Origin: a bacterium
Lineage (GTDB): Bacteria > Patescibacteriota > Gracilibacteria > Absconditabacterales > Absconditicoccaceae
NCBI GenBank assembly: GCA_043772005.1
Contig: JAYVGP010000009.1
Coordinates: forward strand, 4,328 to 44,327
Length of the DNA stretch: 40,000 nt
Direction of reading: 5' to 3'
The translations under genes were made by a program, and so were the position numbers. The notes under the pieces are model-generated. The model worked only from the letters and a program-made list of their open reading frames with translations. It had not been told where the DNA came from and did not search any database. Below are positions 4,493 through 33,974 of this stretch, one piece after another (position 1 is the stretch's first letter; each line of letters starts with the position of its first letter).

Positions 4493-7400
4493 TTAGAAGT
4501 TATCAGCAAAAGCTGAACCAAGATTAGTAGTTGAGAATCTAAGACCTGAGATAGTAGTCATACTATCTTCTTCTGAGTATGTTACATTTGCAGAATTCTT
4601 GTAATCGATAGCGATAGAAGAATCAGCTCCAAATGAAGCAGCATCAAGATCTACATAGAATGTAGCAGTCTCACCAGCACCTAAGATACTATCAGTACCT
4701 GTAAGGTTGAATGTTACTACACCAGCTGTACATGTACCAGTACCAAGAGTCGTAGAGTCACCTCTAAGAGCAAGGTTTACAGTACCTGAGAATCCAGCGT
4801 TAGTAGCACATACTAATGTAAGAGTCTTAAGAGCCAATTCAGCATCTTCAGTATCAGCTTGCTTAGAGTTAGTCCAAGAGTCAGCTGTAATTACCAATTT
4901 ACCGATTGTCTGATTAGGACTTGAAAGGTTTGAAGTATCGTAGTCAGTAAGAGCAAGAGCGCTAATTCTAACAGGAACGATAGCAACAGTATATGGAGAG
5001 TTTACATTAGCTTCAGTGATATCACTATTAGATGACATACCTTGAGCTTCTACTATCTGGAGACCGATTGTGAAATCAGGACTTCCATAGTTAGCAGTAA
5101 GACCATCACCCATAACATTAGTTACCAATCTTAGGTAGAGTACTTCAGTTTTACCTGCAGTAACTACATAGTTAAGATCGTTGATCTGTATAGATGTATC
5201 ACCATCAGATACAGTACCTTCGCTACCAGCGTTGAGTACAGTACCATCAGCCTTAACAATTTCTACCTTAGATACTAGATCAGTAAATACAGCAGCATTG
5301 TTGAAGGTAATAGCAAGATCTTCAAGTTTGATATCTTCATCACTAGCCTTAACTTTGAATGCAGCTACGTTCTTAGTAGAACCAGCAACAACATACATAT
5401 TGTTTTTGATAGTAGAGTTTGTAGTATCAGCAGATACGTCAAGATCACCATCACCTACGAGAACGATTGCTCTTGTAGTAAAGCTTGAACTATTAGCAAC
5501 AATATCGTTTTCATCGTCTCTAAACTCAAATGAACTTACGTTAGCTGAGATAGAACCAGTAAGACTATTGTTTGATGTTACGTCGATCTTCACAACATAC
5601 TTCTGAGTAGAAGATGCAGCGATGATTTCGTTGAATCCATCAAGATCAAGTGTACCAGCATTTGTGATATCACTACCGTTCCAAGATTCGATTACAGTAG
5701 CTGAACCGTCCTTGTAAAGAGCAATCTTAGTAATGTAGTTCTTGTTGAAGAATGTAGCATTACCAGTCATCATAAATTCTTTGAACTTGATAGATGAACT
5801 ATCATCAGTTTCAACTTGGAATGTGAAGAAGGCAATATCTTTTTGACCAGCTACTACGTCAAGAGACTGAGCAGAGATCTTAGATACCTTAACACCTGGT
5901 TCTACAATAGTAAGCTTGTCGAATGTCAATGAAGATGGAGTGATATCAGTGATATCTTCGTTTTCATCAAGATCTTCGAGAGCTATATTACTAGCCATAA
6001 GACTTAGTTGTACTGTATCTGCTACAAAACCGCTAAGATTAGCTTTAGTATCACCACGTACTTCGATTCTTACTTTCTTACCAGTTGGGATAGAAAGAGC
6101 AAGATCGTCGAATGTAAGAGTATTACCAATAGCATCTACTTCTTCAGTACTACCATCTACAGATACTTCGATTTTGTCAAAGATACCAGTCATAGTACCA
6201 CCACCAACAACACTAGCGTTGAATACAAGTGTATCGAGTTCTACATCGCTACCAGCGTTGACCGTAAGGTCAAATGCAGCAAGCAAGTAGTCGTCTCTAT
6301 CTTGTCTCATTTCGTCGATATCGAGGTTTACTTCTTCGAGAGTGACATCACCAGCGTCGATAGTAATTGTTGAACCAGCAGTAGGAACAGCATCGAGAGT
6401 TACAGCAAGACCGTAACCATATTTAGCGTCATGACCCATGATGTAATTTACGTCATCGATGATAAGCTTGATGTCTTCACCAATACCTGAGATAGGATCA
6501 GCCATTACTTTGAAGTCTTGTGATTCACCATCAGCGATCATAAGTGGCTTAGCAAATGTGAAAGTAAGATACTTACCGTCAACTTCTGATACTGTAGCTA
6601 CTTCTACACCATCAAACTCAAGAACGAAGTTCTCAAAGTTAGTTCTGATGTTGTTTTCGTCGTCTTCAAGAGTAATAGAGTCGATCATTACATCGTAGTC
6701 AGCATCCTTGTTTTCGATTTCGAATGAAGCAATTTCTACACCCTTGTCTCCAAGTTGTACAGTGTCGTCATTAACATCCATGTCGATTTCGATTTCAGTA
6801 GCGTTAACTGCACCTACTCTAAACTTGTTAGCGTCAACAGCGTCAACAGCGTTACCGTTTACTTCGATAGCAGCAATAGTGAACTCTTGGTTAGATGCAA
6901 TAGCTTCGTCTCCGATAGTTGCAACTACATCTACAGTCACTACATCACCAGCGGCGAGAGTAAGAGTAGGAGTAAGAGTAAACTCTCTTGTACCATCAGA
7001 TTCAAATGATCTAGTCTTAGAAGCAATTGTACCGTTGATGTAAAGAGTTACATCTTGGATAGAATCCTTGTTACCAAGACCGAGTCTTTCGAGAGTAATA
7101 GATGCCAACTTACCAGCTTTGTCAGCTTCGATGTCGAATGAAGCGACATGAGCAGGAGCAAGACCAGGAAGAGTAGTACCCTTTGGAGATTCAGCAGAAA
7201 CTGATACAGTGTATTCACCGTTACCAACTACTACAGGATCTACAGGGTCAACAGGATCTACTGGATCTGTAGGTTCTGTAGCACCTCTGTAAAGCATAAG
7301 AAGAGCTTCGTATCTAGTGATAGGTCTGTCAATAGCAGCACAGTCCGTTTCCTTAGTGATACCATTCTCTTGTGCATAAGTACAATAGTTCTTATACCAA

Positions 7401-7858
7401 GGAGAAGTAGCTTCATCCATTGATCCATCAAGTCCTCTTACGAGAGCTACGATAAATTGAGCTTTAGTCATGTTTGTTTTAGCCATAAACGCGTTATTTG
7501 AACCTCTAAGCAATCCTTGACCACAAGCTGTAGTAATAGATGCAGAAAGTGAAGGATCAAACATAGCAGCGTCTGAGAAGCTACAATCAATTGTTTCATC
7601 AACTTCAGTACCGAGAACTTCAGTAGCGAAAGCTGATAAGAATTTAGCTCCTTGTTCTCTTGTAAGAGTAGCAAAAGGCATAAAGGCAGTTTCTGTGCTG
7701 TACATTGTTAAACCTGTATTGTAACCCCACGCAAGCGCAGCGTCGAATTCAGGATCGTTCAATGCTCCAACCACAGGCGAAAGTGCCGTGAGAGTTACAT
7801 TAGCCATCATAGCAATAAGCATTGCAGATGATACTAGTTTTACGTTGAATTTATTCAT
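4493..7858 (-). CDS. S-layer-like surface protein with N-terminal signal peptide and three SLH-like domains (1121 aa)
   Basis: One unbroken ORF even in the standard code (track 4493..7951). I start it at the internal ATG 7858-7856, where MNKFNVKLVSSAMLIAMMANVTLTALSPVVGA looks like a signal peptide. SLH-like segments are present (WGYNTGL...FMPFATLTREQGAKFL; FSDAAMFDP...MTKAQFIVALVRGL; SPWYKNY...ITRYEALLMLYRG), then a PTDPVDPVDPVDPV linker, then about 850 aa of T/S/D/V/N-rich modules. Confidence 0.75.
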   Translation of the reverse strand: MNKFNVKLVSSAMLIAMMANVTLTALSPVVGALNDPEFDAALAWGYNTGLTMYSTETAFMPFATLTREQGAKFLSAFATEVLGTEVDETIDCSFSDAAMFDPSLSASITTACGQGLLRGSNNAFMAKTNMTKAQFIVALVRGLDGSMDEATSPWYKNYCTYAQENGITKETDCAAIDRPITRYEALLMLYRGATEPTDPVDPVDPVDPVVVGNGEYTVSVSAESPKGTTLPGLAPAHVASFDIEADKAGKLASITLERLGLGNKDSIQDVTLYINGTIASKTRSFESDGTREFTLTPTLTLAAGDVVTVDVVATIGDEAIASNQEFTIAAIEVNGNAVDAVDANKFRVGAVNATEIEIDMDVNDDTVQLGDKGVEIASFEIENKDADYDVMIDSITLEDDENNIRTNFENFVLEFDGVEVATVSEVDGKYLTFTFAKPLMIADGESQDFKVMADPISGIGEDIKLIIDDVNYIMGHDAKYGYGLAVTLDAVPTAGSTITIDAGDVTLEEVNLDIDEMRQDRDDYLLAAFDLTVNAGSDVELDTLVFNASVVGGGTMTGIFDKIEVSVDGSTEEVDAIGNTLTFDDLALSIPTGKKVRIEVRGDTKANLSGFVADTVQLSLMASNIALEDLDENEDITDITPSSLTFDKLTIVEPGVKVSKISAQSLDVVAGQKDIAFFTFQVETDDSSSIKFKEFMMTGNATFFNKNYITKIALYKDGSATVIESWNGSDITNAGTLDLDGFNEIIAASSTQKYVVKIDVTSNNSLTGSISANVSSFEFRDDENDIVANSSSFTTRAIVLVGDGDLDVSADTTNSTIKNNMYVVAGSTKNVAAFKVKASDEDIKLEDLAITFNNAAVFTDLVSKVEIVKADGTVLNAGSEGTVSDGDTSIQINDLNYVVTAGKTEVLYLRLVTNVMGDGLTANYGSPDFTIGLQIVEAQGMSSNSDITEANVNSPYTVAIVPVRISALALTDYDTSNLSSPNQTIGKLVITADSWTNSKQADTEDAELALKTLTLVCATNAGFSGTVNLALRGDSTTLGTGTCTAGVVTFNLTGTDSILGAGETATFYVDLDAASFGADSSIAIDYKNSANVTYSEEDSMTTISGLRFSTTNLGSAFADNF

Positions 7859-8080
7859 CCGAATAAAAGTAAAAAATAAAAAAGAATTACATGAGACAAA
7901 ATATCTCACTGTGTCTCCACACAGCTTGACGCCAAGATAGTGATCAGACATACGAATACAAGTGAAAATGTACCAATGTCTGACACGCCCTGTGTACGGT
8001 CGTCACCATGTATGTACGACTATATCTGATGCTTGTGACAATTATGATGTCTGACAGAGTATGTATTAGATTGACAATCT

Positions 8081-19269: not shown

Positions 19270-19276
19270 TTTTATG

Positions 19277-19348
19277 CAGGCCCTGCAAGACTCGAACTCG
19301 CGACGCGAGGCTTTGGAGACCTCCGCTCTACCTCTGAGCTAAGGGCCT
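19277..19348 (-). tRNA. tRNA-Trp (anticodon CCA)
   Basis: Hand fold: acceptor AGGCCCT/AGGGCCT with A1-U72 and G73, D arm GCTC-AGAGGTA-GAGC, anticodon arm GAGGT-CTCCAAA-GCCTC, T arm GCGAG-TTCGAGT-CTTGC. Confidence 0.9.
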
Positions 19349-19389: not shown

Positions 19390-20853
19390 CTAGTTTTTTG
19401 TTTTGGTAAAATTGATCATAATAGTCTGCATATCACCAGTACTACGAAGATGATATGCTGCTCACTGTGCAGGTGGAGCGGAGAAGATTTTAGTTTGATC
19501 ACCATCACCACTAACCTGATCAAATATGATACCTGTGCCTGCAAACACGACCGAACGATACTCGAACAATGGATTCAATCCAAGGATATGACGCTCACGA
19601 TCAGTCAGGTTAATACCATATTGCTCCTGTAGTTGATCAATCGTACGAAGGTATTGTGAAGGGACTGATAGTGTATAATTGATATGGAGCTCATATGATC
19701 ATACCGGTAGAACTGAAATATCAAGAATATTATCTTGCGACTGCATCATCTCCTGGCCGTCACTAGCCTCAATTGATATATGTTTGATAACAAAGGTATC
19801 AATCTTATTATATGATTGATTAAGATCCCATAGATACAGATGCTGCGACTCAAGATCAGTGATCCAGTTAAACTGCTTGAGTGTAGAACGAAATGCTGGG
19901 TCAATGTCTGGTAAATATATTTGCATCATCCCAGGAGCGAATAATTGTCAATAATTCGTTAATGCCTGTCCTAGTAATGATACTTTATTCTGACTCACAT
20001 ATTGTTGTACTTCGTCCATGTAGAGCTGCTTTTTGAATCATGTATCAGAACCACGAATCAGATCGACCGATGCATTGATAAACTGCCGCTTCCACAACTG
20101 TGCTTGCAGCAATGGTACTAGTTTCGTTAGTGTCTTAGTACTAATAAAGAATACACCATCAATAGTGGTATCGTATGTTTTGTTATAGATAGCAGAAATT
20201 GCAAAACCATCACGATCAGTAAAGCCAAATTTGTTACCAGCAATAAAGGTCGCCGTATTGTGTCATAGATAATGCTTAGTCCATTCAGGAAGTGAAAGCA
20301 CTACTCATGAATTACTAAATGGTACCTCATAACTATCATGAATACTCATATCTTGAATCACCCCACTTGTAACTTTTACACGGACAAATGAACCATAAAA
20401 ACCACCATTGGGTCTGACTTCTGCACTATTCTGTAGAAGAATCAAGTAGGTCTTAGGCTCACGATATCATAGATAGTCTAATAGCAACTCACGATGAGGA
20501 TACAAATCACATCATAATTCGGACGTGAATCAGGTCAGTATAACAGCTAATTCTTGTGAAGGAGCACAACTCTCCTGATACCAATCATCATAAAGCTGAA
20601 GTAGTTGATCTTGAGGTATAGATTTGTTCTGCTTGAAGTAGTTGATCAAGGTGAGTGCTGTGCGCTGAACTGATGGACTATGGATAGTAGACAGAGCAAA
20701 AGACCTTAGAGATCACAGAGAGAGTGATTGAGTCTTACTGACAAACTGCTGTAATCATCGTGATATAACAAAAACACACAACAAGAGTATAGTAATCAAC
20801 CGCCGGACAAACCTACGCCACTGCTTCGGCTTTGTAATTATAGCAAATCACAT
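19390..20853 (-). CDS. DUF4012 domain protein (487 aa), N-terminal TM anchor
   Basis: ATG 20853-20851. Hallmark LILLQNSAEVRPNGGFYGSFVRVKVTSGVIQD. Track ORF 19699..19929 is in the same frame. TAG stop at 19392-19390. It starts 24 bp after the stop of the lamin-tail gene. Confidence 0.7.
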
Positions 20854-20876
20854 AATATTGGGGCTAACTGATTTCA

Positions 20877-23800
20877 TTATAGGAGGTTTTGTAGGGTTTC
20901 TCGTAGGGTAGATCGTCGAGATTGAGATTGTGATGCATCGTGTGAAAGCTGTGATATGAGCAATCATGATCCGATGTCTATTCATGTCGTTTGACTCAGT
21001 ATTGGATCAAGATAGATTGCTGGATAATGTTGCTGGATATATAGTTTCTCTTGATAATACTGGGCATTACGGTCCGATAAGGTTTGAATATATTCCTTAC
21101 TCGACTGATATAACTGTGTAATACGAGTAGCATATGCACGAGACTGTTCAAGTTTGGTATGAAGCAGATCGATATAATCTTGTTTACTATTGGTAATGCT
21201 ACGATATGTTTGGTATAATTCATTCGTCTTACTACGATAACGATCCCATATATCACTAATTTCTTGATACTGTTCTTGTTTCAGCACCTTATTGATAAGT
21301 TTTTGTTCTCTCAAATCAAGGTTCAATAGTTCTAATGCATCGTCACTATCCGATATTGTCACAATCTGACCTTCATCAGCATAAAGTTCGCGCATCTTGT
21401 TGGAAATCTCAATAGTCGTCAAATCAAGCATATCTGAACTATGATAACTGCCATAACATACTTGGTCGTATATGGTTTCTCAATCAGTCAATGCAACACA
21501 TCATCCGTCGTTGGGTAGTGGAAATGAATCATAGATCAACTGCGCTAAGTCCGATCATCAAGATCAGGTGATAACTCTATTAGCCTTATTATTAATCACT
21601 AACAATAAAACTGATCACGATTGCGCTTGTTCATCATCCCATATCAATGAGACCAACTCTCATCCATCAGTATCACGTCACGGCGGATCAGCAATAATAC
21701 GATCAATCATAACTGCTTGATGCTGTTGAAAACGATACAACGATAATGATGCATCAGTATTGCTCGACGATGCTGTTCCACTGGATGATTGCTGTTGAAT
21801 AGATGTATCGAACGAGCATTCTCAGCCAAGTTGATCTTGCGCGTTAACGGTGCATCACTGCTTTCTGATATTGGTAGCAAGCACATCATGCTTATCCTTT
21901 CGCTTACGATAGAGGTCCTCATAATAGGTCGAGGTAGATGATGGCGAAGTAGATGATGAACTACTACTTGATATCGATGGATAGCTGATAAATGAATGAG
22001 TCTGACACAGCTGCTGTCCATCCTTGCTAATCGTGAGCTGTAGTGGTGCAAGTATCGCTTGGGGCAGAGTGAAATATCATGGATTGCAGCTGTCGGAGCC
22101 GGTGAACGTAAGTCAAGATCGCTGACACTGGTAGCTACTAGAATTTTGTATTTCATCTCTATCCAGCGATGCAATGAGGTTGATCGAGTTGCCAAATCTC
22201 AATGGAGTTGTATGCTGCGCCACAATACCACATACATGCTGTTCTCCAGTTTGAATGATAGTTGTTGTGAGCGTATTGGTGATCGTTTGCTGATGTATTG
22301 CTCCATAAAACATATATTCATCTTCACAAACCATAGTAGCACCACTATATTGTTGATAGGTAACACGGTGGGATCATGGAGCAAATGACTGTCACAGCGA
22401 ACATGAATTATTGGTTGATATAGCTCAATCGACCAATCGGGAGCTTGATGAGCAAGTTGAGTCTACTAAACTTCCGGACACAGTAAATCATGCAGAAAAT
22501 GATCCTGTGATATATCACTCATTGACAGCACTAATACGACATCATCCGATTTGTGGGACTTGTATTGATTGATGACAAGATGTCAGAAGAGTGGTTGCTT
22601 GATTGGTAGTAAAGATTCTTGTGCCTCATGAGTATGAAGTGAATATACTTGCTTTATTGGCTTGTGTGGATGAATAAATGACTGAGTCAAGCACCAAGCC
22701 TGATCAATTGCTCATAATAAGAGATTCTCCGTCATCGGTGAGCGTCATATTGGGCACCAGTATGACATTGTCAGACAAGACTCCACTCATCGATTCCACA
22801 AGGTATCGTACCGATCCAGACTGAGCTGAAATATCAAAGATCTTACTGGTATCTGATGTTCCCAGCCCAGCAATAGTGAGGGATCATGAGTAGGGTGCAG
22901 TAAACGACAGTGATAGATGCTCACCCACACAGTCAGCAAATGGATATATTTGAGAAATCTGGATCGATCAGGTAAGTTGTGTTCAAGTTAAAATTATTCA
23001 GGTCATGACTATTCATGTAACAACAATACCTGTACTAGCAGCTCCCGTGATTATCATTCAAGTTACAACAGTTCATGTCGTTACTACTCCAGTAAAAATG
23101 GTACCAGTACTAATTGATCATGTTATCAACAATCAAGTCGAAATAGTTCATGTGTTTGCAGGAAATAACGTGAGTCACCGCACGAGTCATGGATTGCCAC
23201 GATGTCATGAAATGATATTTGTGTTGTGAGATATTGGCGTAACTTGCCAGAGTTGTTGAGAAAAATCATACTCTCGAGCAGCAGACTGGTTATCGGATCA
23301 TAGTACTTGTGATACAATCAGATCGAGAGAGTCAATCACGTCTCCACTATAGATCAGCTGTAATGAGCGAGCAGTAGTATCTGTCATAGATAATCACTGC
23401 CCAGATACAATATCAAATCACGATGACACTACCATCGCTAGCGTATCACCAATCACTACGCTCTCATTGGTTCATAAATTCAAAGTAGTTGTTAGTAATC
23501 AAGATGTTTTGACTCAAGAAATACTCACTGATCCTATAAAAGGATCTCACCGATTTGTTAGTTCAATATATTCATCAGTACCATCGATCCTGACTTCAGT
23601 GATGCTGAGCTGTGGCGATGGATTTGGTAGTACGAATGATGTCATCATAAGCATCAATGACGAAATATCTTCCTGTGGCTCATTTTCAACACTAGAATAA
23701 GCGATTTCTGGTGGATTTTGCTCCACTGCTCACTGTCAGACTGTGGGCTGGGACGAATCAGGGATCAATAATCCTCACGTACTATCTAACGGTCATGATC

Positions 23801-24164
23801 ACACAATACTACCTGATGAGTTAGACACAACATCTGTCGTACTTCATGATTCGACACCAGGAAAGATATTAGTATCAGATTGATCTTGCGCAATATTGCT
23901 ATCACTATCGACGATAGGTAAAAGCTCTGGCTGTCATGGTTTGTCTGACATAAGACTTAGAACTTCGACAGTATTGGACGCTTGCTCTGATTCAAAATCA
24001 TTATATACAAGCTCTTCTCAAGATCACGGGATCGAAATAGTGATGTCTTGTGCGACAGCCCGACTCAAACATGTCTGACATAGTATGACAACTATCGACA
24101 TTCGACTTAGACATGTCTGACATAGTATGACATAATACGACAGCAAACAATACTTGTCTGACAT
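20877..24164 (-). CDS. Giant surface-type protein with three lamin-tail-domain (LTD)-like segments, a (TGxxx)13 repeat and a Q/Y-rich coiled-coil C-terminus (about 1095 aa)
   Basis: One minus-strand frame has no TAA/TAG from 24236 down to TAA at 20879-20877. Track ORFs 22113..22334 and 20982..21431 are in this frame. LTD-like motifs: ITEVRIDGTDEYIELTNRG; IQISQIYPFADCVGEHLSLS...LTDDGESLIM; MIDRIIADPPGRDTDGGELVSLIW...LPNDGGCVALTDGETIYDQVCYG. The start is uncertain: ATG at 24164, 24101 or 23951. Confidence 0.65.
22965..23153 (-). repeat. 13 tandem 15-bp units encoding the pentapeptide repeat T-G-x-x-x inside the LTD gene
   Basis: Translated: TGTIS TGLLI TGSIS TGTIF TGVVT TGTVV TGMII TGAAS TGIVV TGIVM TGIIL TGTQL TGS. 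The Gly codons in order are TGA TGA TGA GGT GGA TGA TGA GGA GGT TGA TGA TGA TGA. Confidence 0.85.
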
Positions 24165-27990: not shown

Positions 27991-28531
27991 ATGCAAAAAA
28001 TTACTTTTATCACATGAAATCAACACAAGGCAGATTATCTTGCTCAATTTCTTGGCTATCCAGTAGACCACATCAAACTTGATCTGGATGAAGTTCAATC
28101 CACAGATCTTCGTGAGATTGTAGAACATAAAGTTAAACAAGCCTACAGTATAGTCAAAAAGCCCGTCATCGTGGAAGACGTATCATTAGAATTTGAAGAA
28201 TTAGGTTGATTACCAGGACCATTTATCAAATTTTTTTGTCGATAAAGTACCATTTCAAAACGTATGCAATATGATTTGATTAAATAGAAATGCTACAGCA
28301 AAATGTGTCTTTGGCTATTATGATGGCAAGGAATTACACCTATTTGAGTGAAAACTAGATGGAACTATTACTACACAACCATCAGGAGAAAATTGATATG
28401 GTCGAGATCAGATCTTTATACCACAGTGATACGATGTCACAAGAGCATCACTATCTCCAGAAGATGACCAAAAAACATACCTACAGATTAAACCATTTGC
28501 CCAGCTCAAAGACTTTCTTGAAAGAAGATAA
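27991..28531 (+). pseudogene. Ham1/RdgB-type non-canonical purine NTP pyrophosphatase (ITPase), interrupted by a +1 frameshift in a T7 run
   Basis: Frame 1 (27991-28245) reads MQKITFITGNQHKADYL...VIVEDVSLEFEELGGLPGPFIKFF and then stops. The family-typical continuation VDKVPFQNVCNMIGLNRNATAKCVFGYYDG...GENGYGRDQIFIPQGYDVTRASLSPEDDQKTYL runs in the next frame from 28238 to TAA at 28529-28531. The shift lies in TTTTTTT at 28231-28237. Confidence 0.7.
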
Positions 28532-31781: not shown

Positions 31782-33974
31782 CTATTGTTCTGATGGAATT
31801 TTGTTAATAAGGTTCTCATTAAGATCACCTCAAAGACCTAACCCATATACACCATAATCCATGAGTTTTGCAATCTTAGCGCTCACAAACCTACATCGCT
31901 CCTCATGATAGAATCTATGTTCCGTAAAGTATTCACGTAGCTTTCCATGAGTAGGTTTCTTTGATCTCAAAAGACTATGTCGAGCAATATCTTCAATCTT
32001 CCAGTACTGAGGAACAGGATTCCACATATTTTTTTCCTCAGTCATCATATAGGTATATGCTGCGAACATCTCTGATCTCACACCCAAAGATATGGGATTA
32101 TCACTAGCATCATATCCATCGGCAAACTCTTCGAACCAATCACGAACTTTTGATAGCTGTAAATTTACCCCCCATGTTAAGTTTTGATTGATAATTTTTT
32201 TTGCCACCTCATCTACTGTCAGAATATCTGTTAAACGCGACTTAATCGTATTGATAATCTTGCGGCACTGTTCTACCTGAAATAAAGATCAAGCAAGATA
32301 GTTTGCTGTATTGTCGGGTAGGGGTGTTTTGAGTAGCTCTTTGGATATATTCTGAATAATATTTCTACGTGCCAATGGAGTGGGCGGCTCATTCTGAGCC
32401 TCATACACATCCGCAAATAATCGCTTTCTTAGATTCATCGTATGATACTTGTTACGTTTTCTTTTTTCAGGATCTGAGACCGTAGTGTGGCTATCTTTTT
32501 CTAGTTCATCTGCAATATGATTTAAACTGTTCTCTGACTCCAAAATAAGTCTTGTATGACCACTGTTAATCATTTTTATTAGTTCTCATTTAATCCAATA
32601 CTTACCTTTCATGATTTTATCAAAATCACTAATATACATAACATCACAATCATTTAGCTTTTTGGTGAATGTATCAAATCCTTTTGACTTTAGCTCTGGA
32701 TTGGGCTCTTGTGCGATCATCGAGATTTCTTTTGCTAATCCTTCCATACTAAATTCCCATATACGAGCTCTTGGAAATTTACTCTGAATCTCACTGAGAT
32801 AGTGCTTAATGATTGTAGTTTTACCACATCACTTACACCCGCTAATAATACAGTGTTTAATAGTATCATCCGTAATTGGGGATAACTGATCTCTTAGTCG
32901 TTTGGACAACAGACTATCCGCATCGCGATTACCGTTATGAATAGTAAGTTGATTTGATGTTTGAACTTTCTTAGGGCGATTTTTGGAGCGTGCCGCTACT
33001 ATCAAATCATACTCTGATCTTCATTGACCACTTTTGTGACCATATTCTATATGTATTAATTTATGAAAACCAGCTCAAAGGCCTAAAAACTCCTTTGCAT
33101 ACTCTACGAAAGCTCATATCACCTCATTATCAAATATATCCATGTAGCTTTTCACCAACTCTTCTTTTCCAGGATATATAAAATATCGACCAACTAAATT
33201 CTTTGAATTTTGTATTCTATATAATACAAGATTTATTCCACTAATATATAAATTATAATCTTCAATAGAATTATTTCTTTTTAAGATTCACTTAAAATTA
33301 AACCAAAGTTGATTGATGATTTTCTGATCACATACAGGCTTAATCTTAGTATCAAGAAAACAATCTATCACTGGTTTCCCCGTATTAATGTAGGTCTTAT
33401 AGAAATCTGGAGATCAAATAAAATCAATAATAGATCACATAATAGGATAATCTTTGAGATCCTTCTTTATCCTGGAGCTAACGATAGCCGCTCACTTTAT
33501 AAAGTTTTCTACTAAGTTTGTATTCTTCTCTCCACTTCCATAAGTCCACGATATCAGATCATGTTTGATATACTCAAACAAATCGTCTCAATCTTTTCTT
33601 GTTTCAATCAAATATTGATATAGGGATCACTCTTTATCAAGCGCTACCCAAAATTCATCGGCAGTAGGAATGCGTAATTTCTCAAACAACTCTTCTCTTA
33701 TAAATTTAATACTGGATCCCACTGGTCAGCCATCCTCCTCCTTTGGGGGAGTGCTGCTGATGGATGGTATATTTGGAAGTTTTTTGGGAGGATATTGTTC
33801 TGGCAGCCACTCGCCACTTGGCTTCTCTCACATATCGTATTCGTTTCAGGATCATCATCAGGACATCCCCACTATCCCCAATAAATTTATTTGCCCAATA
33901 GAAACTCCTTTACCAAACCTTCATTTGGGGGATTGTGGTAATTTAAGAGGTCAAGATTCTTGTTCAACTCCCAT
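31782..33974 (-). CDS. DnaA-family AAA+ ATPase with about 400-aa N-terminal extension and a divergent C-terminal domain (730 aa)
   Basis: Track ORFs 32289..32573 and 31830..32207 are the tail of one frame that stays open (TGA=Gly) up to ATG 33974-33972. Walker A SGCKGCGKTTII. Walker B and following CDVMYISDFDKIMKGKYWIKGELIKMINSGHTRLILESEN parallels DnaA D.LLIDDIQFL.GK...QEEFFHTFN...GKQIVLTSDR. NLRKRLFADVYEAQNEPPTPLARRNII parallels RLRSRFEWGL...IQPPDLETRIAIL. PLPDNTANYLAGS parallels the lid. The canonical DnaA signatures (GLGKTHL, RQIAMYL, DHTTV) are not conserved. Confidence 0.6.

What the first reader, a model, noticed from the sequence alone, without database searches (positions are those of the whole stretch)
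22965..23153. Tandem pentapeptide repeat (T-G-x-x-x)x13 in which TGA and GGN alternate at the invariant Gly: an internal decoder of the genetic code and an unusual protein module
Thirteen consecutive 15-bp units encode TG followed by three mostly hydrophobic or small residues: TGTIS TGLLI TGSIS TGTIF TGVVT TGTVV TGMII TGAAS TGIVV TGIVM TGIIL TGTQL TGS. At the homologous second position, 9 units use TGA and 4 use GGT/GGA. This shows TGA=Gly from the sequence alone, without external homology. I do not recognise a 5-residue period with an invariant Thr-Gly and a hydrophobic triplet as the classical A(D/N)LXX pentapeptide family or as collagen-like. It could form a beta-solenoid or stalk element of the giant surface protein.
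Basis: seen in the sequence. Interest (0 to 1): 0.7.

Follow-up and report, generated by a model that had tools for sequence, protein, structure and literature searches.

The report
Thr-Gly pentapeptide spacer with TGA-coded glycine
A secreted protein of a bacterium that reads the stop codon TGA as glycine carries 13 tandem five-residue units (Thr-Gly plus three small or hydrophobic residues) between two domains. The repeat is real and shows the known code change neatly, but it is most likely an ordinary variable-length spacer, not a new kind of module.

Summary
On the minus strand, 23153..22959 encodes 13 consecutive T-G-x-x-x units. Nine of the Gly positions are TGA and four are GGT or GGA. 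A run of 13 never occurs by chance: the maximum was 4 in 20,000 shuffles.

TGA = Gly is correct. It is supported internally, by five orthologous loci (TGA or GGN at the periodic position, never TGG), and by invariant Gly motifs in the window's AlaRS and helicase. This is the known genetic code 25 of Gracilibacteria/Absconditabacteria, so it is not new.

The repeat lies between two LTD-like beta-sandwich domains of a 1095-aa secreted protein. This gene is followed by a DUF4012 gene in every locus examined. Copy number ranges from about 5 to 13 among eight orthologues, and two loci carry DNA-identical 15-bp units, which indicates recent slippage.

Only T and G are fixed. Position 4 is Ile or Val in 68% of units. 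Charged residues are nearly absent, and the only Pro is in a degenerate terminal unit.

The repeat fits the pentapeptide-repeat frame only at positions i+1, i+2 and i-2. It fails the defining D/N and central L/F positions and the Pfam thresholds. No confident fold was obtained.

Best reading: a length-variable, beta-prone inter-domain spacer. A solenoid is not excluded. Interest is modest.

The parts
22959..23153 (-). 13 tandem pentapeptide units, T-G-x-(I/V)-x. The finding's 22965-23153 covers 12 full units plus TGS. Residues 338-402 of the host protein. 9 Gly as TGA, 4 as GGN.
20877..24164 (-). Host gene: 1095 codons plus a TAA stop. It has 51 TGA(Gly), 38 GGN and 3 TGG codons. It encodes a secreted or envelope-associated multi-domain protein of a small lineage-specific family (8 orthologues and 2 distant relatives among 5.8 billion proteins).
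24051..24164 (-). N-terminal signal-peptide-like region (MSDKY...SIVVILCQTCLSRAVA|QD), conserved in orthologues. It contains a 42-bp tandem duplication at 24061-24142. The signal-peptide reading is inferred by eye and was not tested.
23163..23615 (-). Domain 1, LTD-like beta-sandwich (PQLSITEVRIDGTDEYIELTN ... HRGNPGLVRGLTLF), immediately upstream of the repeat. Residues 184-334.
   Evidence: PF00932 E 0.001-0.09 in 4 of 6 orthologues, below the cut-off; for coordinates
22533..22964 (-). Domain 2, LTD-like by motif only (IQISQIYPFADCVGEH...). It starts inside the last repeat unit with no other linker. Residues 401-544. No Pfam hit.
21444..21716 (-). Domain 3, lamin-tail domain (AVMIDRIIADPPGRDTDGGELV ... 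VCYGSY). Residues 817-907. The equivalent region of orthologue P0005 passes Pfam's LTD cut-off.
21012..21329 (-). C-terminal heptad-rich, probably coiled-coil region (LLNLDLREQKLINK ... HYPAIY). Residues 946-1051. Read by eye from the sequence.
19390..20877 (-). Downstream DUF4012 (PF13196) gene. Its ATG overlaps the host's TAA by one base (TAATG). The pairing is conserved in all five orthologous loci for which gene context was listed, so it is probably one operon.

Best explanation
The region is a protein-coding tandem array of five-residue units, T-G-(S/T/I/V/A)-(I/V)-(T/L/S/I/V). It directly joins two LTD-like beta-sandwich domains of a secreted, envelope-associated protein in a bacterium that uses genetic code 25 (TGA = Gly). 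It most likely acts as a length-variable inter-domain spacer or stalk. It is almost uncharged and almost proline-free, and it is rich in beta-branched residues, so it would form an extended, beta-prone chain punctuated by a Gly every fifth residue. This would set the distance and freedom between the two flanking modules.

The array grows and shrinks by slippage of 15-bp units. Selection then keeps only the Thr-Gly pair and an aliphatic residue at position 4 while the rest drifts. The TGA/GGN alternation at the Gly position is simply synonymous codon drift under code 25.

Shown: the coding frame, the code, the architecture, the copy-number variation, the unit duplication and the position-specific conservation. 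Inferred: the secreted location, the spacer role and the extended or beta conformation.
For: Frame and code.

Position: the array lies between 'GNPG-V-GLT-F' (the end of domain 1) and 'IQI-Q(I/V)YPF-DC-GEH' (the first strand of domain 2), with no other linker, in all orthologues.

Copy number: it differs among orthologues (about 5, 7, 7, 9, 9, 10, 12, 13), while the flanking domains stay 61-74% identical to the window.

Recent slippage: L003 has four DNA-identical units (ACTTGAACTGTAACA) and L001 has two. The window's units are old, at 53% mean DNA identity.

Position-specific composition over 50 units: T44/S6; Gly 50/50 (TGA 35, GGN 15); position 4 is I or V in 34/50. There are 0-3 charged residues per array, and the only Pro is in the degenerate terminal 'AGP' of P0002. 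GRAVY is +0.36 to +1.18, against -0.12 for the whole protein.

Against a rigid solenoid: copy numbers show no multiple-of-3 or multiple-of-4 regularity, and unit similarity shows no consistent lag-3 or lag-4 super-period.

Analogous arrays in spacer positions: (TG[SGN]IQ)n lies between a signal peptide and an enzyme-like C-terminal domain in standard-code proteins P0016 and P0022. (TGDIP)n lies between cohesin and SLH domains in P0021. (TGDx[LF])n follows a transmembrane anchor in P0019. AF2 models the (TGSIQ)n array of P0022 as coil with pLDDT about 30.

Precedent: short-peptide repeats in a coil region of an extracellular Gracilibacteria protein, with slippage-prone DNA (PMC6851277).
Against: The composition is unlike a typical flexible linker. 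There are no Pro, Glu or Lys residues, and the window's copy is 53% aliphatic or aromatic. This fits a folded or self-associating beta structure better than a solvated random coil. The strict conservation of T-G at period 5 across 43-65%-identical orthologues implies a structural constraint stronger than 'any spacer'. The absence of a predicted fold is therefore not evidence. The signal peptide and extracellular location are inferred by eye.
Confidence: 0.5

Rival explanations
1. The array folds into a beta-solenoid built on the pentapeptide-repeat frame: four units per coil as in pentapeptide-repeat proteins (PRPs), or three per coil as in 15-residue triangular beta-helices. Position 3 and/or 5 would point inward and Thr-Gly would form the corner. 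It would serve as a short rigid connector or a self-association surface with an unusually aliphatic exterior.
For: Period 5 with 13 contiguous units; PRPs are recognised by at least 8 (PMC8145042). In the single register T=i+1, G=i+2, 72% of positions fit the broad 2019 PRP consensus (i+1 50/50, i+2 50/50, i-2 46/50), against 18-33% in the other four registers. Weak Pfam hits: PF00805 with E 0.004 and 17.1 bits for the P0007-orthologue array; PF01469 with E 0.018 for the window array. The beta-branched, uncharged, hydrophobic composition suits a folded beta structure.
Against: The two defining PRP positions fail: D/N at i-1 in 2/50 units and central L/F in 11/50. All Pfam scores are below the gathering cut-offs. 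A profile of the array finds no solved PRP. Orthologues with 5 or 7 units have too few for a stable solenoid, and copy numbers are not multiples of 3 or 4. There is no lag-3 or lag-4 similarity between units. AF2 gives coil for the analogous (TGSIQ)n array, though at low confidence.
Confidence: 0.22
2. The array is a Thr/Ser-rich O-glycosylated stalk, mucin-like, with a Thr presented every five residues as a glycosylation site. The glycans would keep it extended and protease-resistant on the cell surface.
For: There is an invariant Thr (or Ser) every 5 residues, plus further S/T at positions 3 and 5 (S16+T11 and T10+S9 of 50). The protein has a signal-like N-terminus and a poly-Ser tract elsewhere (residues 730-746). 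The neighbouring DUF4012 family has been linked to capsule and exopolysaccharide loci (PMC6744442).
Against: No glycosyltransferase was seen next to the gene (searches list PheT, DUF4012, RluD-type and malic enzyme genes as neighbours). No known bacterial O-glycosylation sequon matches. The strongly aliphatic position 4 is not explained. Nothing here tests glycosylation. This rival is compatible with the spacer model and is not exclusive of it.
Confidence: 0.15
3. The hydrophobic array is one or more membrane-spanning or membrane-inserting segments.
For: The window's copy has GRAVY +1.18 over 63 residues, with stretches such as TGIVVTGIVMTGIILTG.
Against: The hydrophobicity is not conserved: orthologue arrays have GRAVY 0.36-0.55 and are Thr/Ser-rich, for example TGTVTTGTVTTGTVTTGTVT. 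Lengths of 25-65 residues would change the number of spans and flip the topology of the conserved flanking domains. A Gly every 5 residues and a high Thr content are poor for helices.
Confidence: 0.04
4. The periodicity is an artefact: non-coding DNA, a shadow of the opposite strand, or assembly error. TGA would be a stop or Trp codon.
For: A 152-codon ORF exists on the + strand at 22894-23349 when TGA is read through. Public databases translate the gene with Trp at TGA.
Against: The minus-strand frame is conserved as protein in 8 orthologues, with synonymous variation at third positions (Thr codon third base A5/T5/C2/G1). The identical gene is found on 7 contigs. TGG never occupies the periodic position. 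TGA aligns with invariant Gly in housekeeping enzymes. A tRNA-Trp with anticodon CCA, which would read only TGG, is present in the window.
Confidence: 0.01

Closest known systems
Genetic code 25 (UGA = Gly) of Gracilibacteria (BD1-5) and Absconditabacteria (SR1)
   Same: TGA is a frequent sense codon, making up 41% of Gly codons in the window outside one gene. It aligns with invariant Gly in AlaRS and a PcrA/UvrD-type helicase. TAA and TAG are the only stops used. Trp is TGG only, with a tRNA-Trp(CCA) present.
   Different: Nothing differs. The repeat only re-derives a code that was predicted in 2013 and validated by proteomics (summarised in PMC6851277). The tRNA-Gly(UCA) and the loss of RF2 cannot be checked in a 40-kb window.
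Pentapeptide repeat proteins (PRPs; Pfam PF00805, right-handed quadrilateral beta-helix; consensus [STAV][DN][LF][STR][G])
   Same: Period 5, at least 8 contiguous units, Thr at i+1 and Gly at i+2 in every unit, and a small or aliphatic residue at i-2 in 46/50 units. There is a weak sub-threshold Pfam hit in one orthologue.
   Different: The eponymous D/N (2/50) and the central Leu/Phe (11/50) are missing. Position i-1 is Ile or Val instead. Scores are below Pfam's cut-off, and no sequence link to any solved PRP was found. Copy number falls to about 5 in orthologues. Most characterised PRPs are free-standing cytoplasmic or secreted solenoids, not linkers between Ig-like domains.
PTD tripeptide repeat region of a Gracilibacteria extracellular protein (Sieber et al. 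2019, PMC6851277)
   Same: It is a short-peptide tandem repeat inside a predicted extracellular protein of a code-25 bacterium. It was predicted as coil between beta-rich parts, has slippage-prone DNA, and has a proposed adhesion or spacer role.
   Different: The period (3 against 5) and chemistry differ: Pro/Asp-rich and polar against Gly/Thr/aliphatic and uncharged. That repeat avoids TGA, whereas this one uses TGA at its key position. The proteins are unrelated.
(T-G-[SGN]-I-Q)n arrays in secreted proteins of standard-code bacteria (P0016, P0022) and (T-G-D-I-P)n in a cohesin/SLH protein (P0021)
   Same: Period 5, invariant Thr-Gly, Ile at position 4 in P0016/P0022, and a location between a signal peptide or domain and the next domain. 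The window's last unit is itself TGSIQ.
   Different: These arrays are near-perfect, polar (Gln or Pro at position 5) and much longer (about 25-30 units). Homology is not shown. They were retrieved by a low-complexity profile and may be convergent.

Membership tests
Genetic code 25 (TGA = Gly) | TGA is read through as a sense codon | tested here: met
   16 ORFs of at least 150 aa with table 11 against 56 with TGA as sense. The host gene has 51 in-frame TGA codons.
Genetic code 25 (TGA = Gly) | TGA positions correspond to Gly (not Trp) in conserved proteins and orthologues | tested here: met
   With TGA masked as X, the AlaRS and helicase align those positions to Gly in AGAGSGKT, DTGMG-ERL and NEGRGY. 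In orthologues, TGA aligns to TGA or GGN in 161/212 cells and to Trp in 0. At the repeat position there are 35 TGA, 15 GGN and 0 TGG.
Genetic code 25 (TGA = Gly) | tRNA-Gly with anticodon UCA present; release factor 2 absent | not testable with these tools
   Only tRNA-Pro(GGG), tRNA-Trp(CCA) and tRNA-Ile(GAT) lie in this 40-kb window. The rest of the genome is not available.
Pentapeptide repeat proteins (PF00805) | At least eight contiguous five-residue repeats | tested here: met
   13 contiguous units in the window. Orthologues have about 5 to 12. Criterion taken from PMC8145042.
Pentapeptide repeat proteins (PF00805) | Central residue (i) is Leu or Phe | tested here: not met
   In the best register, 3/12 window units and 11/50 units overall.
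Pentapeptide repeat proteins (PF00805) | Position i-1 is Asp or Asn (the A(D/N)LXX motif) | tested here: not met
   0/12 window units and 2/50 overall. The position is Ile or Val in 34/50.
Pentapeptide repeat proteins (PF00805) | Score at or above Pfam's gathering cut-off | tested here: not met
   The window array has no PF00805 hit. The best orthologue scores 17.1 bits against 20.2. PF01469 scores 15.4 against 26.4.
Pentapeptide repeat proteins (PF00805) | Right-handed quadrilateral beta-helix fold | tested here: inconclusive
The Trp-substituted model has pLDDT 35. The analogue P0022 array is modelled as coil with pLDDT about 30. There is no 4-unit super-period.
Lamin tail domain (PF00932) | Score at or above Pfam's gathering cut-off (34.3 bits) | tested here: inconclusive
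   Window domain 1 scores 14.8 bits (E 0.037), and domains 2 and 3 have no hit. Among orthologues, 4/6 give weak hits. P0005 scores 35.9 bits and P0004 34.0 bits for the third domain. No solved LTD was found by profile search.
Slippage-driven tandem-repeat spacer of surface proteins | Copy number varies among close relatives while flanks are conserved; DNA-identical neighbouring units occur | tested here: met
   About 5 to 13 units among orthologues. Four identical 15-mers in L003 and two in L001.
Slippage-driven tandem-repeat spacer of surface proteins | Protein is exported and surface-located | not tested
   A signal-peptide-like N-terminus (hydrophobic core plus AVA|QD) is conserved in orthologues. 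No predictor was available.

The most novel reading that the evidence does not exclude
The T-G-x-(I/V)-x array is a previously undescribed class of beta-solenoid, or a cross-beta self-association element. It would use the pentapeptide-repeat backbone frame but with a Thr/aliphatic core and an aliphatic exterior in place of D/N and L/F. It would serve as an adjustable rigid connector or as a 'Velcro' surface that oligomerises envelope proteins of code-25 episymbiotic bacteria. Related T-G pentapeptide arrays in other secreted proteins (P0016, P0019, P0022) would belong to the same unrecognised repeat family.
Probability: 0.15. Interest if true: 0.55.

Novelty: new variant of a known kind. Interest (0 to 1): 0.3.

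Why it matters
There are three practical lessons and one small open question.

1. The repeat is a compact, self-contained demonstration that TGA is Gly in this genome. That is useful for teaching or as a quick code check on a contig, but the code itself has been known since 2013.

2. The large public protein collection searched here holds this lineage translated with Trp at every TGA. About 5% of this protein's residues are therefore wrong, and half of its glycines.

3. Thr-Gly pentapeptide arrays recur as inter-domain segments in secreted proteins but are not captured by any Pfam repeat family.

The open question is whether such an uncharged, beta-branched, Gly-punctuated array is a floppy spacer, a solenoid, or a self-associating strip. 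This could be settled cheaply by predicting or expressing the correctly decoded sequence.

Tried and rejected
1. Tandem Repeats Finder on the DNA found no array at the site, because the units are too diverged.

2. Pfam and NCBIfam scans of the whole protein and of the array gave nothing at E<0.01. Only sub-threshold pentapeptide hits appeared at E up to 10.

4. AlphaFold on the Trp-substituted database versions (A4) gave mean pLDDT 35 and is uninformative even for the flanking domains. No fold search was therefore attempted.

5. AlphaFold on the standard-code analogue P0022/P0016 modelled the repeat as coil at pLDDT about 30. With only 2 sequences in the alignment this is inconclusive.

6. A word-indexed search of 5.8 billion proteins with the Gly version of the arrays gave no hit.

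7. A profile of the array against PDB sequences gave only a chance match to EF-2 at E 1.1. A profile of domain1-repeat-domain2 against PDB gave nothing.

8. A full HMMER scan of 1.84 billion representatives with the Trp-version array profile gave 31 hits. Most are low-complexity or eukaryotic satellite translations. Only P0016, P0019, P0021 and P0022 are informative analogues.

9. A DNA-pattern scan of metagenome contigs for four ACNTGA motifs at 15-bp spacing gave at least 120 loci. Almost all are perfect minisatellites unrelated to code 25. Only L021, an SLH protein with polar T-G-x-x-N units, looked genuine.

10. The genome-collection scan found a single related genome, an unclassified MAG, so the organism's taxonomy was not resolved.

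11. A test for a 3- or 4-unit super-period showed no consistent signal, though power is low.

12. TGA makes up 70% of codons at the periodic Gly, against 55% in the rest of the gene. I considered this as a possible programmed-pause signal and set it aside, because the units are not independent (they arise by duplication) and the excess is small.

13. The transmembrane reading was rejected because hydrophobicity and length are not conserved.
Full report
**1. The observation**

The feature lies on the minus strand. Translating window:22965-23153:- with the standard bacterial table gives T*TIS T*LLI T*SIS TGTIF TGVVT T*TVV T*MII TGAAS TGIVV T*IVM T*IIL T*TQL T*S. These are thirteen T-[TGA/GGN] starts at exact 15-bp spacing, nine with TGA and four with GGT or GGA. 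The thirteenth unit is completed as TGSIQ at 22959.

A run of 13 [ST]-G-x-x-x units is far beyond chance. In 20,000 shuffles of the host protein the longest run was 4, and no other frame in the window holds a comparable run.

Tandem Repeats Finder does not report the array. The units share only 53% DNA identity on average, and the third base of the invariant Thr codon is A5/T5/C2/G1. The periodicity is therefore maintained at the protein level.

The identical gene was read on 7 contigs. A strain variant with one substitution elsewhere has the same 13 units. An assembly artefact is therefore unlikely.

**2. The genetic code**

With table 11 the window yields 16 ORFs of at least 150 aa. With TGA read through it yields 56. 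Four lines of evidence show that TGA means Gly and not Trp:

- Within the array, TGA alternates with GGN at one homologous position.
- In five orthologous loci fetched as DNA (L001, L003-L006), the same position is TGA 35 times, GGN 15 times and TGG never. Genuine TGG (Trp) codons occur elsewhere in four of these five genes, for example in GNPg-VV-W-gLT.
- Over the whole gene, the window's TGA columns align to TGA or GGN in 161 of 212 orthologue cells and never to Trp.
- With TGA masked as X, the window's PcrA/UvrD-type helicase and AlaRS place those X's on Gly at several conserved motifs: AGAGSGKT (Walker A), DTGMG-ERL and NEGRGY.

A tRNA-Trp(CCA) lies in the window. This is genetic code 25. 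UGA = Gly in Gracilibacteria was predicted earlier and confirmed by proteomics, as summarised in PMC6851277.

**3. The host protein and its family**

The array is residues 338-402 of a 1095-aa product (24164..20877, minus strand). The gene has 51 TGA, 38 GGN and 3 TGG codons.

The family is small. Two searches of 5.8 billion proteins returned the same protein (P0001, stored with Trp at every TGA), seven orthologues at 43-65% identity, and two distant relatives. One related genome was found in the species-representative collection, an unclassified MAG. The record names (BUSI22, GFS) suggest glacier-fed-stream metagenomes; this is my inference from the names only.

Architecture from the alignment and coordinates:

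- A conserved signal-peptide-like N-terminus.
- An acidic, low-complexity stretch.
- Domain 1 (184-334), with the LTD-type first strand LSITEVRIDGTDEYIELTN and a GNPG end.
- The array.
- Domain 2 (401-544), starting IQISQIYPFADCVGEH.
- Cys-rich middle domains, partly absent in four orthologues.
- A poly-Ser tract.
- Domain 3 (817-907).
- A heptad-rich C-terminal region.

Pfam's LTD model passes its cut-off only for domain 3 of orthologue P0005 (35.9 bits against 34.3; P0004 scores 34.0). Domain 1 gives E 0.001-0.09 in 4 of 6 orthologues, and domain 2 gives nothing. In the five loci where gene context was listed, the next gene is a DUF4012 protein. In the window its ATG overlaps the stop codon (TAATG). 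DUF4012 is a CPR-enriched family that has been linked to capsule and exopolysaccharide loci (PMC6744442).

**4. Anatomy and evolution of the array**

Every orthologue has the array in the same place, abutting both domains with no other linker. The number of units differs: about 5 (P0003), 7 (P0004, P0005), 9 (P0006, P0008), 10 (P0002), 12 (P0007) and 13 (window). L003 carries four DNA-identical units (ACTTGAACTGTAACA) and L001 carries two. This shows that unit slippage is ongoing in some lineages, while the window's units are old and diverged.

Composition over 50 complete units:

| Position | Residues |
|---|---|
| 1 | T44 / S6 |
| 2 | Gly 50/50 |
| 3 | S16, T11, I9, V5, A4 and others |
| 4 | I19, V15, T7 and others |
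| 5 | T10, L10, S9, I5, V4, A4 and others |

The arrays hold 0-3 charged residues, and the only Pro is in the degenerate terminal 'AGP' of P0002. GRAVY ranges from +0.36 to +1.18, against -0.12 for the whole protein. Hydrophobicity is therefore high in the window but not conserved. This, together with the variable length, rules out a transmembrane role.

**5. Comparison with pentapeptide-repeat proteins (PRPs)**

PRPs are recognised by at least 8 contiguous repeats of [STAV][DN][LF][STR][G], later broadened, and they form a four-units-per-coil right-handed beta-helix (PMC8145042).

I tested all five cyclic registers. Only T=i+1, G=i+2 fits, with 72% of positions within the broad consensus against 18-33% for the other registers. 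The fit comes from i+1 (50/50), i+2 (50/50) and i-2 (46/50). The two defining positions fail: D/N in 2/50 and central L/F in 11/50.

Other tests agree:

- Pfam scores are below the cut-offs: PF00805 reaches 17.1 against 20.2 in one orthologue only, and PF01469 reaches 15.4 against 26.4 in the window.
- A profile of the arrays finds no solved structure.
- There is no consistent similarity between units three or four apart.
- Copy numbers are not multiples of 3 or 4.

The array is therefore not a member of the PRP family. A PRP-like backbone remains possible but unsupported.

**6. Structure prediction**

The database (Trp) versions gave pLDDT 35 throughout. An analogue with real Gly (P0022/P0016: signal peptide, (TG[SGN]IQ)n, C-terminal domain) gave coil at pLDDT about 30 for the repeat, while its C-terminal domain reached 60-79. 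None of this settles the conformation.

**7. Is the module found elsewhere?**

- The Gly-version word search found nothing.
- A full HMMER scan with the Trp-version profile gave 31 hits, mostly junk. It also recovered P0016/P0022, (TGDIP)n between cohesin and SLH domains (P0021), and (TGDx[LF])n with W/G alternation after a transmembrane anchor in another TGA=Gly organism (P0019).
- A DNA-pattern scan of metagenomes returned almost only minisatellites.

Thr-Gly pentapeptide arrays therefore recur as inter-domain or anchor-proximal segments of exported proteins. Homology among them is not shown.

**8. Verdict**

The most likely reading (about 0.5) is a slippage-driven, length-variable, beta-prone spacer between two Ig-like modules of an envelope protein. 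Selection acts on the Thr-Gly pair and on an aliphatic residue at position 4.

A PRP-like solenoid (about 0.2) and an O-glycosylated stalk (about 0.15, and compatible with the spacer model) remain open. The transmembrane and artefact readings are rejected.

The composition (no Pro, Glu or Lys; many Ile, Val and Thr) is the main point against a simple floppy linker. It is the reason a cheap structure prediction of the correctly decoded sequence is the decisive next step.

Novelty: a new variant of a known kind (a tandem-repeat spacer with a pentapeptide frame). The code finding is already known. Interest is modest (0.3).

Noticed in passing
window 4493-7951 (-): This 1152-aa ORF has 83 Gly codons and not one TGA (70 GGT, 12 GGA, 1 GGC). 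TGA makes up 41% of Gly codons in the rest of the window, so P(0 of 83) is about 1e-19. Its codon usage is also the most biased in the window (ENC 33.6 against 42-56). It has a signal-like N-terminus and no Pfam hit. It is probably a very highly expressed envelope or S-layer-like protein that avoids TGA-Gly. It is the only large gene here that a standard-code gene caller would get right.
   Followed up: partly
window 24061-24142 (-), N-terminus of the host gene: A 42-bp tandem duplication (2.0 copies, 87% match) encodes VILCQTCLSR twice within the signal-peptide-like region. A third partial copy (SVILCQTK) lies just upstream of the start. The duplicated peptide is conserved in the orthologues, so the duplication is old.
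   Followed up: partly
P0001-P0010 (database copies of the window protein and its orthologues): The public protein collection stores this lineage translated with Trp at every TGA, as under code 4. P0001 is the window protein with 51 Trp in place of Gly (95% identity to the true product). P0001 gives no Pfam hit at all, and this blocked structure prediction of the true sequence.
   Followed up: yes
window 19390-20877 (-): A DUF4012 (PF13196) gene has its ATG overlapping the host gene's TAA by one base (TAATG). The gene pair is conserved in all five orthologous loci for which gene context was listed, which suggests an operon and a shared envelope function.
   Followed up: partly
window 19276-19348 (-): tRNA-Trp with anticodon CCA, which would read TGG only, is consistent with TGA not being Trp. 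No tRNA-Gly(UCA) lies in this window.
   Followed up: yes
window 27991-28245 and 28271-28531 (+): Two short adjacent ORFs (84 and 86 aa) look by eye like the N- and C-terminal halves of one Ham1/RdgB-type nucleoside-triphosphate pyrophosphatase. This could be a split or frameshifted gene, or a sequencing error.
   Followed up: no
window 31782-33974 (-) and about 34-36 kb: A 730-aa protein gives weak AAA/DnaA-ATPase hits (E about 5e-4, below the cut-offs). It lies near the minimum of cumulative GC skew (about 34-36 kb) and next to tRNA-Ile. This may be the region of the replication origin.
   Followed up: no
P0019; L021 5522-7405 (+): Other organisms that read TGA as Gly carry different Thr-Gly pentapeptide arrays in exported proteins. 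P0019 has (TGDx[LF])n after a transmembrane anchor. L021 has polar T-G-x-x-N units at the N-terminus of an SLH-like protein. The distant relative P0009 has a six-residue [ST]-G-[DN]-x-x-L array ahead of its first LTD.
   Followed up: partly
window 22894-23349 (+): A 152-codon ORF on the opposite strand overlaps the repeat when TGA is read through. It is a shadow of the conserved minus-strand frame and has no support of its own.
   Followed up: partly
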